Shown here: piece after piece, positions 1 through 13,004 of the stretch
How the letters are laid out: each line of letters starts with the position of its first letter
Numbering within the stretch: position 1 is the stretch's first letter
From: the human T2T-CHM13v2.0 reference genome, Homo sapiens
NCBI GenBank assembly: GCA_009914755.4
Contig: CP068257.2
Span: 6,880,001 to 6,944,000, forward strand
Length of the DNA stretch: 64,000 nt
Direction: 5' to 3'
Position numbers and translations under genes: made by a program
The notes under the pieces: generated by a model
Told to the model about the DNA's origin: nothing
The model's input: the letters and a program-made list of their open reading frames with translations, nothing else
Databases searched by the model: none

Positions 1-1060
1 ATGATATGTCTACGTTATTAATTATATGTAACATATGTTATATATTATATATTTCACATGGAATACACGTTACATATAATATATACTATGATACCTATAA
101 CGTATAATTTATTAAATATAATATACTGTATCTCATATATTATATATAATTCATAATATACAGTATGTGGAATGTGTTATATATGACATGTAATATATGA
201 TATATATAACATGCAATATATCATATAGAACATACAATATATGATACATAATATATATGGTATACAAAATATATTTTATGATATATATTATATATGTGTT
301 ATATTATATTATATATAACTATTTAAAATTTTATATAACTGTATAATATTATACGTAAATATATAATATAATAAACATGACTATATATTATGTTATATAT
401 AATTTTATTACATACGTTACATAATATATCATACTATAATGCATATATTATATTATTTTATATTACATAATATATATTATATATCACATAATATATGCTG
501 CGTACATAATATTAAAATATATATTATATTATGATATATGAAATATCGTATATATTATGTATCCTATATTGTATAATGTACATTATATATTATATAACAT
601 GTATGTTGTCTATCATACGATATATAAAATTATATATATGATTATATTGTTATACCTATAACGATATAAATATGTAATTATATGTATCATTATTTATATT
701 ATATATTATTATATAATCATGTATAATTATTTATATTATATAAATAATTATATGATTATATAAATTATAATATATAAATTATACTATGTAATAAAAAATA
801 TATATATTATATATCATATATGATATAGTATATATGCTATATATCATATTATATATAAAAATATGTTATGTTATATACAATTATATATTTTCATATATAA
901 GATGTATAATATGTATTATCTATTATATATGTTATGTACTATATGTAATGTAAATAAGCTGACACAGGATAAATATTACATATTATGATATATAATATCT
1001 ATGAGGTTATATATTACATATAAAGCATATTACAAAACATATAATATATATCATGTATAA

Positions 1061-1352
1061 TTTTTTTTTAGACAGAGCCTTGTCCTGTTGCACAGCGTGG
1101 GGTACAATGGCGCCATCTTTACTCACTGCAACATCTGCCTCACGGGTTCAAGCGATTGTCCTCCCTCAGCCTCCCAGGTAGCTGGGAGTAGACCACACTG
1201 GGACTACACCAGCTGCCACCATGCCTAGCTAATTTTTTGGATTTTTAGCAGTGACAGCGTTTCACTGTATTGGCCAGGATGGTCTTGATCTCTTCACCTT
1301 GTGATCCCCTTGCCTTGGCCTCCAAATTTCCTGGGATTACAGGCCTGAGCCA
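1061..1352 (-). mobile_element. Alu SINE (antisense), embedded in macrosatellite unit 1
   Basis: Poly-T head then gacagagccttgtcctgttgcacag...cctcccaggtagctgggagta...ctgggattacaggcctgagccaag, the reverse-complement Alu consensus. It lacks the last ~12 bp. Confidence 0.9.
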
Positions 1353-3465
1353 AGATACATGTTTTTTAAATGAAGAAGAATTTCAAAGCTACTCTGCTTG
1401 GGACAAGAATCAAATATATAAACTGAGGAATAAAACATAACCATGAAACATATTTATAACTGCATATGGAAAATACAGAGGATAATTTTTTAAATAACAT
1501 ATTTTGAAAGCATTAACTAGTAATTTGAAGAGTTGGCATTTGAAAGGCCCGTATGAATATACCTTCAAAGCAGCAACACAGGTTCCCCATGAGAAAAATC
1601 AAACTCAGGGAAAATAAAACCACAAGGGTTCACTCTGTTCTGACCTTTGAAAAACACAGCACAGACAGTGGCCCTTAGGACCAAGAGCAGGAGATCCCTA
1701 ATCCCGTCACCACGGCGATAGGGCACAAACATTGCAGGGTGAGGGCACAATCCACATTGTGAGGTCCAACTGCTGCCGGGAAGACAGGAGTGCTTTTACA
1801 TAGACCCAAAGGTCATTGAAGGCTCAGTGTTTTGTTTCAAAAACTGAATCCCAAGCCCACACATTACTATGCTGCGCTTCTTAAAACAAGTTATGAGATG
1901 GGAAATAGGGCACCCACAAATATATCTATACATTATGTATATAATAATATATAGAATCATATATATAATATATGTAACATATATATATAATATTCTTTTA
2001 CACCCTGCATCTTACATTATGTATATTATATGTAATATAATAATTGAAAGTATATAAGTATAATATTTATACAATATGACATATAATAATTATATTTTAT
2101 GACATATATAATATATATTCTATATCATATATAGAATATATTATATGGTTAATATACGTACTAAATATATAATATACATTATATGTATTATATATATTAT
2201 ATCTACGTTATATATAACATACCTCATAGATAATATATATGATATCTCTGTTATATATAATATAAAATAACATAAAAAAATATATAATTGTATATATAAA
2301 ACATGACATATAATATATATTATATTTTATGACATATATAATACATATTATATATTATATATGTAATACGTTGTATGTATGATGCATATATTAAATATAT
2401 ATGATATGTCTACGTTATTAATTATATGTAATATATGTTATGTATTATATATTTTACATGGAATACACATGTTACATATAATTTATACTATGTTACCTAT
2501 AACGTATAATTTATTATATATAATATAATATATGTCATAAGTTATATGTAATTTATAATATACAGTATGTGGAATGTGATATATATGACATGTAATATAT
2601 GATATGTAACATACAATATATCATATATAACATACAATATATGATACATAATATATATGGTATACAAAATATATTTTATGATATATATTATATATGTTTT
2701 ATATTATATTACATATATCTATTTAAAATTATATATAACGGTATAATATTATACGTAAATATATAATATATATGACTATATATGAAGTTATATATAACTT
2801 TATTACATACTTTACATAATACATCATAATATAATGCATATGTTATATTATTTTATATTACATAATATATATTACATATCACATAATGTATACTACCTAC
2901 ATAATATTAAAATATATATTATAATATGATATATTAAATATCATATATATTATGTATCCTATATTGTATAATATACATTATATATTATATAACATGTATG
3001 TTGTCTATCATATTATATATATAATTATATATGATTATATTGTCATACATATAACGATATAAATATGTAATTATATATATCATTATTTATATTATATGTA
3101 ATTATATAATCATGTTTAATTATTTATATTTTATAAATAATTATATGATTTTATAAATTATAATATATATAAATTATACTATGTAATAAAAATATATATA
3201 TTATAGATCATATATGATATAGTATATATGTTACATATCATATTATATAGAAATATATGTTATGTTATATACAATTATATAATTTCATATATAAGATGTA
3301 TAATATGTATTATCTATTATATATGTTATGTAATATATATAATGTAAATAAGCTGACACAGGATAAATATTAAATATTATGATATATAATATATTTGAGG
3401 TTATATATTACATATAAAGCATATTACAAAACATATAATATATATCATGTATAATTTCTTTTTAG

Positions 3466-10648: not shown

Positions 10649-10940
10649 TTTTTTTTAGACAGTGTCTTGTCCTGTTGTACAGGGTGGAGTACAATGGCGC
10701 CATCTTTGCTCACTGCAACATCTGCCTCACGGGTTCAAGCGATTGTCCTCCCTCAGCCTCCCAGATAGCTGGGACTATACCACCCTGAGACTACACCAGC
10801 TGCCACCATGCCTAGCTAATTTTTTGGATTTTCAGTAGTGACAGCGTTTCACTGTGTTGGCCAGGATGGTCGTGATCTCTTCACCTTGTGATCCCCTTGC
10901 CTTGGCCTCCAAATTTGCTGGGATTACAGGCCTGAGCCAA
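10649..10940 (-). mobile_element. Alu SINE (antisense), unit 5 copy (more diverged)
   Basis: Same Alu, with more substitutions than in units 1-4. Confidence 0.9.
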
Positions 10941-13004
10941 AGTACATATTTTTTAAATGATGAAAAATTTCAAAGTTACTCTGCTTGGAACAATAATGAA
11001 ATATATTAACTGAGGAATAAAACATAACCATGAAACATATTTATAACTGCATATGGAAAATACAGAGGATAATTTTTTAAATAACATGTTTTGAAAGCAT
11101 TAACTAGTAATTTGAAGAGTTGGCATTTGAAAGGCCAGTATGAATATACCTTCAAAGCAGCAACACAGGTTCCCCATGAGAAAAATCAAACTCAGGGAAA
11201 ATAAAACCTCAGAGGTTCACTCTGTTCTAACCTTTGAAAAACACAGCACAGACAGTGGCCCTTAGGACCAAGAGCAGGAGATCCCTAATCCCGTCACCAT
11301 GGCGATAGGGTATAAACATTGCAGGGTGAGGGCACAATCCACATTGTGAGGTCCAACTGCTGCCAGGAAGACAGGAGTGCTTTTACATAGACCGAAAGGT
11401 CATTGAAGGCTCAGTGTTTTGTTTCAAAAACTGAATCCCAAGCCCACACATTATTATGCTGTGCTTCTTAAAACAATTTATGAGATGGGAAACAGGGCAC
11501 CCAGAAATATATATATACATTATGTATATAATAATATATAGTATCATATATATAATATATATAACATATATATAATGTTGTTTCACATCCTGCATCTTAT
11601 ATTGTATATATTATATGTAATATAATAATTGATAATATATAAGTATTATATTTATACAATATGATATATAATATATATTATGTTTTATGACATATATAAT
11701 ATATATTATATATCATATATAGAATATATTATATGGTCAATATAAGTATTAAATATGTAATATACATTATATATAATACATATATTATATCTATGTTATA
11801 TATAATATAAAATAATATATAATAATATATAATTGTATATATACAATATGACTTATAATTATATATTATATTTTTTGACATATATAATATATATTATATA
11901 TTTTATATATATAATACATTGTATGTATAATACATATATTAAATATATATTATATGTCTATGTTATAAATTATATGTAATATATATTATATATTATATAT
12001 TATATATTTTATATACAATATATATGTTGTTCAACTTCTCCTTTTAAAGAAAAATGAGAAAAAATATCTCTAAAATCGAGGACAGGCAAGGAGAATGTCC
12101 CCCTTTGGGCACCCCTGCTTGTTTTATGTGTGATAATTATAGCACCTCTTCTTGCAAACATTTATGTAAAGTGAGGATTTTACTAAGGACGACCAACATC
12201 TAAGGTTCCCAAAGTGAAGAACTTTAAATATTCCCAACCTGGTCTTCTCGTATGCTAAATTAGAGAAGTTAGGTTTCTGCATCAAGGAAAATAAATGAGG
12301 GTTGTATTTTAGCTGGCACCTAAAAACATCCAAAATTAGAAATGATAAACTTATTTCTTTCCAGAAAGGTAACAACAAAATATTTGAAACTACCTCAGAA
12401 TTAAAGAAAAGTAGCAAAATCAGTTTCTAAAATCAGGAAACTGCGAGAAACTGTCTCTTCTTTTTCTTCTCCTAAACCTCTGCTTTCTAAACTTCCTTGC
12501 CTGGATGATTTCATTTTTTTTCTCTTTCTCCTCCCTGTATTCCTTCTTAAACCACAAAGGGTCCAGAAATAGCTACAGGAGAAGACAAAATAGTAGTCAT
12601 TTCTTTTAAAACAAAACCCACAGGATGAGTGGGTTCAAACATAAGATATACACCTTACACCAAGTCAGAATTAAATGCTCTGATGTTTGGATTTCCTGAT
12701 CTGACTCAAGACACCTTAGGTTTGCCAAGGAATTCCAAATAATGCTTAAGACCTATGATTCAGGGTTTTCAAACCAATATCAGCTAACTGATTTACTAGT
12801 CCTCCAAAACAAAGCCAAAGATTGCTACAAAGTAGTGAATTAGAAACAGCTTTAGCAGATTTTAACAAACTAAAGTGCAAATGGGAGAGAGAAGCGTAGG
12901 GAGTTTTGCAACTGCCTCTGTGGGAATTTACCACAGCTATTCCCCCTAATCCTATAGACTAGGCAAAATACAACAATGTAATACATACCCCAGCAAAACC
13001 ATAC

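What the first reader, a model, noticed from the sequence alone, without database searches (positions are those of the whole stretch)
1..12030. Young 2.4-kb AT-rich macrosatellite with an Alu fixed inside every unit; array continues beyond the window
Five head-to-tail units of ~2395 bp, plus an 80-bp partial sixth, fill the first 12 kb. Every unit has the same three parts: about 1.5 kb of extremely AT-rich, TA-dinucleotide-rich low complexity; an antisense Alu truncated at the identical position; and about 550 bp of unique sequence.

Because the Alu is part of the unit, the amplification postdates that Alu insertion. It is therefore primate-specific and evolutionarily recent.

Units 1-4 differ by only a few substitutions and indels. 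Unit 5, at the array edge next to unique DNA, is clearly more diverged. That pattern is expected when unequal crossover homogenises the interior of an array.

Unit 1 starts exactly at window position 1 in phase, so the array almost certainly extends upstream. Arrays of this size and unit identity are usually copy-number polymorphic between haplotypes and are collapsed in short-read assemblies.

I do not recognise it as one of the named human macrosatellites (D4Z4, DXZ4, RS447, SST1 and so on, which are GC-rich).
Basis: seen in the sequence. Interest (0 to 1): 0.75.

Follow-up and report, generated by a model that had tools for sequence, protein, structure and literature searches.

The report
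Edge of a known HSat1B satellite array
The 2.4-kb AT-rich repeat with one Alu in every unit is real, but it is the long-known human satellite I repeat (HSat1B, the DYZ2-type unit first described in 1984), seen here as the decayed edge of an array, so it is ordinary rather than new.

Summary
Window 1 to about 12,010-12,027 carries five head-to-tail units of 2,356-2,407 bp plus a 50-80 bp stub. Each unit has about 1,550 bp of 86-90% AT sequence, one antisense Alu cut at consensus position 13, and a 566-567 bp moderately GC-rich segment.

It is not an unnamed macrosatellite. It matches the published definition of HSat1B / DYZ2 (classical satellite I; Frommer 1984, T2T-Y 2023) on unit length, three-part build, a 5'-truncated Alu about 20% diverged from AluY, 22-24.5% GC and sparse CpG.

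A 40-nt probe target taken from the 1984 clone hits once per unit with 2-3 mismatches. Human-contamination contigs yield a 2,420-bp unit that I infer to be canonical DYZ2. The window units align to it end to end at about 90% identity.

The units differ by 2-8% from each other, least for U2-U3 and most towards the array edge. Rooting on the Alu consensus shows a derived, decayed subfamily, not the homogeneous Yq12 bulk and not a progenitor. "Young" is overstated. "Extends upstream" is plausible but cannot be tested here. The chromosome could not be determined. Novelty: already known. Interest: low.

The parts
1..12010 (.). HSat1B (DYZ2-type, satellite I) tandem array: 5 full units plus a stub. 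The left end is cut by the window. The right end lies at about 12,001-12,027.
1..2400 (.). Unit 1 (2,400 bp). Its left half is less like U2 (90-94%) than its right half (97-99%).
2401..4793 (.). Unit 2 (2,393 bp).
4794..7187 (.). Unit 3 (2,394 bp). It is 98.0% identical to U2, the most similar pair.
7188..9594 (.). Unit 4 (2,407 bp), 94.3-94.8% identical to U1-U3, with 6 private derived Alu substitutions.
9595..11950 (.). Unit 5 (2,356 bp), the edge unit, about 92% identical to the others. It keeps the ancestral state at the 5 Alu sites where U1-U4 share a derived base.
11951..12027 (.). Partial sixth unit (AT-rich start of the unit only), fading into flanking DNA.
1070..1352 (-). Alu subunit of U1: consensus positions 13-280, 80% identical to AluY, poly-T on the + strand at about 1066-1075. 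It carries a family-specific insert of about 15 aligned gap columns relative to AluY.
3464..3746 (-). Alu subunit of U2.
5854..6136 (-). Alu subunit of U3.
8261..8543 (-). Alu subunit of U4.
10657..10939 (-). Alu subunit of U5.
1353..1919 (-). Together with the Alu it is about 44% GC.
   Evidence: The published RepeatMasker HSATI pieces are 566-567 bp.
3747..4313 (-). HSATI segment of U2.
6137..6703 (-). HSATI segment of U3.
8544..9110 (-). HSATI segment of U4.
10940..11506 (-). HSATI segment of U5.
1920..3463. One complete AT-rich block (about 1,545 bp, 86-87% AT), representative of the blocks at 1-1069, 4314-5853, 6704-8260, 9111-10656 and 11507-12010. TRF finds degenerate 2/7/9/14/16-bp motifs in the AT-rich blocks of units 3-5, and a sub-repeat of about 190 bp (11605-12000) or about 231 bp (repeat finder family D1).
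1328..1367 (-). Alu/HSATI junction that matches the 40-nt 'Y-chrom' padlock-probe target taken from the 1984 satellite I clone. The same site recurs at 3722, 6112, 8519 and 10915.
   Evidence: 5 hits with 2-3 mismatches, 0 expected by chance. The probe sequence is from PMC2212658.
13000..16130 (-). Right flank: an antisense L1 fragment interrupted by an AluY-like element at 14966-15248 (+). This is ordinary interspersed-repeat DNA, not satellite.
   Evidence: ORFs at 14280-14447 (-) and 14604-14741 (-) read as L1 ORF2-like peptides (recognised from my own knowledge).

Best explanation
The first 12 kb is the right-hand edge of an array of HSat1B. This is the classical 'satellite I' 2.4-2.5 kb composite repeat, whose Y-chromosome form is DYZ2.

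Read on the minus strand, each unit is: an HSATI segment of 566-567 bp, then a sense Alu whose truncated 5' end abuts HSATI, then the Alu A-tail, then about 1.5 kb of degenerate TA-rich simple sequence.

The five units belong to a diverged subfamily, about 90% identical to the canonical homogeneous DYZ2 unit. They are not the Yq12 bulk.

How it most likely works (inferred from published work on this family, not shown here). The array is non-coding constitutive-heterochromatin satellite. It grows, shrinks and homogenises by unequal sister-chromatid or homologue exchange in its interior. Units at the boundary with ordinary DNA fall outside these exchanges and accumulate private mutations. That produces the observed gradient: U2-U3 are most alike and U5 is most decayed.

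Shown here: the anatomy, family membership at sequence level, the divergence gradient, the derived phylogenetic position, and the absence of long ORFs and of Rfam matches.

Inferred: the exchange mechanism, the heterochromatic state, the human origin, and continuation of the array upstream.
For: Published definition of the family:
- About 2.4 kb, modal length 2,413 bp, consensus 2,420 bp.
- 24% GC and 1 CpG per 150 bp.
- Mid-array units are more alike than edge units.
- RepeatMasker pattern HSATI (566 bp) / AluSc8 / (TA)n for the 1984 clone X00470 and its relatives.

Window values:
- Units of 2,356-2,407 bp.
- Alu at consensus positions 13-280, 79-82% identical to AluY.
- AT blocks of 86-90% AT, unit GC of 22.2-24.5%, and 1 CpG per 104-236 bp.
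- An HSATI-length segment of 566-567 bp.

Sequence tests:
- The 40-nt probe target derived from the 1984 clone hits once per unit, 0 expected by chance.
- A 28-mer from the family-specific Alu insert occurs only in the five unit Alus, among about 50 Alu hits in the window.
- The same 28-mer retrieves 19 contigs from bacterial genome assemblies, which I read as human contamination. Seventeen of them are 99.4-100% identical to the reference contig L024. L029 is 97.9% identical. L030 is window-like (88.7%). L024 itself has an exact 2,420-bp period, 24.2% GC, 1 CpG per 151 bp, the exact probe target, and 'ACATACG' just past HSATI. I infer that this is the canonical DYZ2 unit.
- The window units align to it collinearly: Alu 94.4-96.8%, HSATI 92.8-94.0% with no gaps, AT blocks 87-91%.

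Rooting on the Alu consensus: 44 derived changes are shared by all window units and the canonical unit, 5 by U1-U4 only, 6 are private to U4, 5-6 to U5, and 2 to the canonical unit.

There is no ORF of 110 aa or more in 1-12,030 and no Rfam family match.
Against: - No copy of Dfam HSATI, GenBank X00470 or the published DYZ2 consensus was available. Identifying contig L024 as canonical DYZ2 therefore rests on its period, composition, homogeneity, the probe match, and the published report that HSat1B contaminates bacterial assemblies.
Their use is corroborated only indirectly, by reproducing the published 20% divergence figure.
- The window units lack the 'ACATACG' junction motif; it is mutated.
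- The units are only 92-98% alike, so they do not fit the description of Yq12 arrays as more than 98% identical.
- The species and the chromosome are not proven.
Confidence: 0.94

Rival explanations
1. A new, unnamed, young primate macrosatellite that arose locally by tandem duplication of an AT-rich / Alu / unique segment.
For: The tandem structure itself. The array ends inside the AT-rich part, as a local unequal-crossover origin would predict.
Against: Copies of the same unit are abundant elsewhere: 23 metagenome contigs and 19 contigs from bacterial genome assemblies. They include a homogeneous 2,420-bp type that matches every published DYZ2 property. The 44 Alu substitutions shared with that type show one common founder. 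The unit matches a probe designed from the 1984 clone.
Confidence: 0.02
2. It is a peripheral block of the Y-chromosome Yq12 DYZ2 region itself, for example the last units next to non-satellite DNA, rather than an autosomal HSat1B array.
For: HSat1B lies overwhelmingly on the Y: 14.2 Mb, against 1.2 Mb on acrocentric chromosomes. Peripheral blocks and array-edge units are reported to be more diverged.
Against: About 10% divergence from the canonical unit is much more than the 'slightly higher divergence' reported for peripheral blocks. U1-U4 share 5 derived Alu changes that the canonical type lacks. Those five changes recur in only 1-3 of the 21 metagenome-contig copies compared. The window-like contigs are L011, L012 and L022. 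The flank is Alu-dense ordinary DNA. None of this excludes the Y.
Confidence: 0.25
3. It is one of the HSATI / Alu / AT-rich modules of the 22q11.2 low-copy repeats or FAM230-type loci (the relatives of PATRR22), not a satellite array proper.
For: Those loci carry the same HSATI (566 bp) / Alu / (TA)n signature and derive from satellite I. The window flank is Alu-rich and rich in tandem repeats.
Against: The published modules are irregular: units of about 836, 1,249 and 1,860 bp, often with a 152-155 bp Alu remnant. Here there are five regular units of about 2.4 kb, each with a 283-bp Alu. There is no long near-perfect palindrome. Inverted repeats are only 70-84% complementary, and a 600-nt DNA fold gives z = -1.06 against shuffles.
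Confidence: 0.08
4. The periodicity is an assembly artefact, that is, a duplicated or mis-joined contig.
For: None specific. Satellite arrays are generally error-prone in assemblies.
Against: The units are not identical. They differ by 2-8% in length and sequence, with nested shared derived states. Independent assemblies show the same tandem arrangement with 2,399-2,420 bp spacing (L016, L021, L024).
Confidence: 0.01

Closest known systems
HSat1B / DYZ2 (classical human satellite I, 2.47-kb HaeIII repeat; RepeatMasker HSATI + Alu + AT-rich simple repeat). Frommer et al. 1984; Altemose et al. 2022; Rhie et al. 2023; Hallast et al. 2023.
   Same: Unit length, three-part architecture and order, Alu truncation point and roughly 20% divergence, AT content, GC and CpG density, and the 566-bp HSATI segment. 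The Alu/HSATI junction sequence matches, and the units align collinearly to the inferred canonical 2,420-bp unit. The edge-of-array divergence gradient is also the same.
   Different: About 10% diverged from the canonical unit and 2-8% between neighbours, against more than 98% identity on Yq12. Units are 13-64 bp shorter than 2,420 bp. The 'ACATACG' junction motif is mutated. A local subfamily (U1-U4) carries 5 private shared Alu changes.
22q11.2 LCR22 / FAM230 AT-rich repeat modules and PATRR22 (Translocation Breakpoint Type A).
   Same: Built from the same HSATI / Alu / AT-rich ancestor.
   Different: Those modules are short and irregular, with truncated Alu remnants and a long palindromic AT-rich repeat. 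The window has regular 2.4-kb units and no palindromy beyond what TA-rich composition gives.
'Composite satellites' of the T2T repeat annotation, i.e. arrays whose unit contains transposable-element fragments (Hoyt et al.; Altemose et al.).
   Same: An ancient TE fragment (the Alu) is a fixed subunit of the repeating unit. Altemose et al. cite HSat1 explicitly as such a case.
   Different: That is a descriptive category, not a family. HSat1B was named long before it.
GC-rich macrosatellites (D4Z4, DXZ4, RS447, SST1).
   Same: Kilobase-scale units in tandem that vary in copy number.
   Different: Unrelated sequence, GC-rich, and some of them coding. Here the units are 22-24.5% GC with no ORF of 110 aa or more.

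Membership tests
HSat1B / DYZ2-type satellite I | Tandem head-to-tail units of about 2.4-2.5 kb (modal 2,413 bp, consensus 2,420 bp). | tested here: met
   Units of 2400 / 2393 / 2394 / 2407 / 2356 bp. Definition.
HSat1B / DYZ2-type satellite I | Three-part unit: AT-rich simple repeat, one Alu, and a more GC-rich 'HSATI' segment, in that fixed order. | tested here: met
   All five units have AT block / Alu / 566-567 bp segment. The order HSATI -> Alu -> (TA)n on the minus strand matches the RepeatMasker tables.
HSat1B / DYZ2-type satellite I | [quoted passage not shown] | tested here: met
   Consensus positions 13-280, 79.1-82.0% identity to AluY.
HSat1B / DYZ2-type satellite I | AT-rich region above 85% AT; whole unit about 24% GC; about 1 CpG per 150 bp. 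| tested here: met
   AT blocks 85.8-90.0% AT, GC 22.2-24.5%, 1 CpG per 104-236 bp.
HSat1B / DYZ2-type satellite I | Sequence identity with the original 1984 clone. | tested here: met
   Only 40 nt could be tested: the padlock-probe target across the Alu/HSATI junction. It gives one hit per unit with 2-3 mismatches, 0 expected by chance. The full clone X00470 was not available.
HSat1B / DYZ2-type satellite I | Collinear alignment to the canonical DYZ2 unit. | tested here: met
   89.9-91.6% identity over the whole unit, with Alu and HSATI gap-free, against the 2,420-bp unit from L024. That L024 is canonical DYZ2 is inferred, not certified.
HSat1B / DYZ2-type satellite I | 'ACATACG' at the HSATI / AT-rich junction (a feature of the published Y consensus). 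| tested here: not met
   Present in the L024 type. Mutated at the equivalent site in all five window units. This is a feature of the Y consensus, not of the family.
Yq12 DYZ2 bulk arrays (the homogeneous Y subfamily) | The vast majority of units are more than 98% identical to each other and to the consensus. | tested here: not met
   92-98% between window units and about 90% to the canonical unit. It is therefore filed under the HSat1B family, not under bulk Yq12 DYZ2.
HSat1B / DYZ2-type satellite I | Location on Yq12, the acrocentric short arms or chr10. | not testable with these tools
   No human reference genome is searchable here. The flank (12-64 kb) holds Alus, L1 and tandem repeats but no recognisable gene.
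Palindromic AT-rich repeat (PATRR) | Long, near-perfect inverted-repeat arms that form a cruciform. | tested here: not met
   The best inverted repeats are 37-97 nt at 70-84% complementarity. A 600-nt DNA fold gives z = -1.06 against dinucleotide shuffles.
HSat1A (SAR) | 42-bp AT-rich monomer. | tested here: not met
   TRF periods in the array are 2, 7, 9, 14, 16 and 190. There is no 42-bp period.

The most novel reading that the evidence does not exclude
The window may capture the euchromatin boundary of a diverged HSat1B subfamily array (U1-U4 type, also seen in L011, L012, L022 and L030) at a locus not yet singled out in the literature. Candidates are the little-described chr10 site or a non-acrocentric site. 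Its old edge units (U4, U5) might preserve intermediate states useful for reconstructing how HSat1B was seeded between the Y and the autosomes.
Probability: 0.12. Interest if true: 0.25.

Novelty: already known. Interest (0 to 1): 0.08.

Why it matters
It matters little as a discovery. HSat1B / DYZ2 has been known since 1984, and its arrays, divergence gradients, methylation and copy-number variation have been charted in complete Y and acrocentric assemblies.

The practical value is for annotation. An AT-rich 2.4-kb array with an embedded Alu should be labelled HSat1B. It should be expected to vary in copy number, to collapse in short-read assemblies, and to turn up as human contamination in microbial assemblies.

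The array edge also gives a clean small example of interior homogenisation against peripheral decay.

Tried and rejected
- Rfam at gathering thresholds over the whole window: no match.
- TRF cannot detect the 2.4-kb period because of its 500-bp limit. K-mer offsets and the repeat finder were used instead.
- The first genome-contig scan and a viral-contig scan with an HSATI 29-mer found nothing. The canonical Y type evidently differs within that 29-mer. The 23 metagenome contigs found with it are therefore an ascertainment-biased sample of minor variants.
- I tried to use the non-family ends of the metagenome contigs as genomic flanks. L001, L004 and L012 are chimeras with what read as bacterial coding sequences. 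The other flanks are all different from each other, so none can be trusted as a real junction.
- Private k-mers of the window units were checked against the contigs to prove same-species origin. The result was ambiguous.
- A full-text search for unit sequences in papers found none.
- Frommer 1984 and Babcock 2007 are not held in the library.
- The Warburton 2008 hits for 'HSATI' were really 'hsatII'.
- The PATRR / cruciform idea was rejected.
L1 was recognised from ORF peptides instead.
- No exon or gene was found that could place the window on a chromosome.

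
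Full report
**1. The observation**

The periodicity is real and strong. Shared 24-mers within the first 16 kb sit at offsets of 2,390-2,407 bp and their multiples. The repeat finder reports five in-register copies spaced 2,394 / 2,390 / 2,407 / 2,396 bp.

Unit lengths are 2,400 / 2,393 / 2,394 / 2,407 / 2,356 bp. Homology to the unit is firm to about 12,001 and gone by about 12,027.

Every unit has the same three parts:
- About 1,550 bp of 86-90% AT sequence.
- One antisense Alu covering consensus positions 13-280 in all five units.
- A 566-567 bp segment that has no paralogue elsewhere in the window.

- U1-U3 are 96.6-98.0% identical, but U4 is only 94.3-94.8% and U5 about 92%.
- The argument that unit 1 is "in phase at position 1" is circular, because the phase was defined by the window start.

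**2. What it is**

A literature search led to the Y-chromosome papers.

Rhie et al. describe DYZ2 = HSat1B as a roughly 2.5-kb tandem repeat of three parts. [quoted passage not shown] Most Yq12 copies are more than 98% identical, and peripheral blocks are more diverged. [quoted passage not shown]

Hallast et al. give these details:
- About 2.4 kb, modal length 2,413 bp, consensus 2,420 bp.
- 24% GC and 1 CpG per 150 bp.
- Mid-array units are more alike than edge units.

Delihas tabulates RepeatMasker output for the 1984 clone (GenBank X00470) and its relatives as HSATI (566 bp) / AluSc8 / (TA)n.

The window meets each of these points:
- Unit length.
- Architecture and order.
- Alu truncation at consensus position 13 and 79-82% identity to AluY.
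- AT content, 22.2-24.5% GC, and 1 CpG per 104-236 bp.
- A 566-567 bp HSATI-length segment.

**3. Sequence-level tests**

*Probe from the 1984 clone.* A padlock probe designed from that clone is printed in PMC2212658. Its joined arms form a 40-mer that spans the Alu/HSATI junction. It hits the window once per unit, at 1328, 3722, 6112, 8519 and 10915 on the minus strand, with 2-3 mismatches. None is expected by chance.

*Family-specific Alu insert.* A 28-mer from the insert in the Alu, which adds about 15 aligned gap columns relative to AluY, occurs only in the five unit Alus among about 50 Alu hits in the window. Scanning the bacterial and archaeal genome collection with it returned 19 contigs. 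I read these as human contamination, as Rhie et al. reported for HSat1B.

Seventeen of the other 18 contigs are 99.4-100% identical to the reference contig L024. L029 is 97.9% identical, and L030 is window-like at 88.7%. L024 itself has these properties:
- A period of exactly 2,420 bp.
- 24.2% GC and 16 CpG, that is 1 per 151 bp.
- The exact 40-nt probe target.
- 'ACATACG' just beyond HSATI.

I therefore take L024 to be the canonical Yq12 DYZ2 unit. This is an inference.

*Alignment to that unit.* The window units align to it collinearly. Overall identity is 89.9-91.6%. By part it is Alu 94.4-96.8%, HSATI 92.8-94.0% with no gaps, and AT blocks 87-91%.

**4. Position within the family**

A scan of metagenome contigs gave 23 further loci. 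Their Alu+HSATI cores lie 0.5-7% from each other and from the window units. The family therefore has several subfamilies and many more copies than the five seen here.

Caveats on these contigs:
- They were selected by a 29-mer that the canonical type evidently lacks, so the sample is biased.
- Several are chimeras with bacterial DNA.

Window-like copies exist in other samples:
- L012 is 98% identical to U2.
- L030 is 98.06% identical to U1 positions 355-1485.
- L011 and L022 carry the window-type junction variant.

I rooted the Alu parts on the Alu consensus.

| Derived substitutions | Count |
|---|---|
| Shared by all five window units and the canonical unit | 44 |
| Shared by U1-U4 only | 5 |
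| Private to U4 | 6 |
| Private to U5 | 5-6 |
| Private to the canonical unit | 2 |

A broader comparison with the 21 metagenome-contig copies gives 47 shared changes, 23 of them at consensus CpG sites.

The "20% divergence" is therefore a founder property of the whole family. The window array is a derived, decaying offshoot, not a progenitor.

**5. Gradient and mechanism**

Adjacent-unit identity is 96.6% (U1-U2), 98.0% (U2-U3), 94.8% (U3-U4) and 92.3% (U4-U5). In 300-bp windows, U4-U5 falls to 76% in the last AT block. The left half of U1 is also less like U2 than its right half.

This matches the published picture of interior homogenisation by unequal exchange with divergent units accumulating at the periphery. 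The mechanism itself is inferred from that literature and is not shown here.

The array has no ORF of 110 aa or more and no Rfam match. The TA-rich blocks contain many imperfect inverted repeats (70-84% complementary). A 600-nt single-strand DNA fold is no more stable than dinucleotide shuffles, with z = -1.06. There is thus no PATRR-like palindrome.

**6. Age**

The description "young" is not supported in the sense of a homogeneous recent array. Core divergences are 1.1-1.6% among U1-U3 and 4-6% for U4 and U5.

A clock date would be unreliable. De novo mutation rates in HSat1B-bearing regions are reported to be about ten-fold above the autosomal average.

In relative terms, the window lineages carry 5-11 derived Alu changes since the family ancestor, against 44 before it.

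**7. What remains open**

The species is very probably human, given the family match to the contaminant contigs. The chromosome could not be established with the tools available.

The right flank is ordinary Alu- and L1-rich DNA that is unusually rich in tandem repeats. Whether the array continues upstream cannot be tested inside the window. It is plausible, because published DYZ2 arrays range from 11 kb to 2.2 Mb.

**8. Verdict**

The object is a member of a long-known satellite family. It is already known and of low interest.

Noticed in passing
L024-L042 (genome contigs); L029:5897-6920: Nineteen bacterial genome assemblies carry HSat1B contigs that I read as human contamination. They include Mycobacterium, Streptomyces, Actinomadura and Bifidobacterium, mostly isolates plus one MAG. 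In the Nostocoides japonicum T1-X7 scaffold NZ_HF570958.1 (5.16 Mb), a 1,024-bp HSat1B piece of about 40% GC sits between two 100-N gaps inside DNA of about 75% GC.
   Followed up: partly
L001, L004, L012 (metagenome contigs): These metagenome assemblies join HSat1B units directly to what read as bacterial coding sequences. They are chimeric contigs, with the junctions in or near the AT-rich low-complexity part.
   Followed up: partly
window 20951-23579: A 2.6-kb (TCTA)n-derived block, strongly C-over-G skewed, organised into higher-order repeats of about 258-295 bp (7 copies at 82% match).
   Followed up: no
window 36710-37926: A 26-bp minisatellite (CCACCCACCAGAAGCTCCAGCATGGT) in 47 copies with 83% matches and no indels.
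   Followed up: no
window 42164-43317: A 49-bp minisatellite in 23 copies (84% matches).
   Followed up: no
window 18240-18849: A 45/90-bp minisatellite of about 12 copies containing an EcoRI-like GAATTC core.
   Followed up: no
window 31124-31746 and 40511-40822: Long simple repeats: (TC)n of about 620 bp and (GAA)n of about 104 copies. Both motifs are of the mirror-repeat, triplex-prone kind.
   Followed up: no
window 27145-27467: A 110-bp unit repeated 2.9 times at 93% identity with no indels.
   Followed up: no
window 12031-64000: The flank is very Alu-dense, with about 50 Alu hits in 52 kb, including tandem-like clusters at 25650-27014 and 32133-33020. No Alu exceeds about 91% identity to my recalled consensus sequences. 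This suggests an elevated local substitution rate or old insertions only.
   Followed up: partly
window 13000-16130: An antisense L1 ORF2 fragment interrupted by an AluY-like insertion at 14966-15248 that has a long A-tail.
   Followed up: partly
L013 and L010 (metagenome contigs): Each contig joins a unit 99.96-100% identical to the canonical 2,420-bp type to a neighbouring unit of a different variant. Either variant units are interspersed in real arrays, or the short-read assemblies are mosaics.
   Followed up: no
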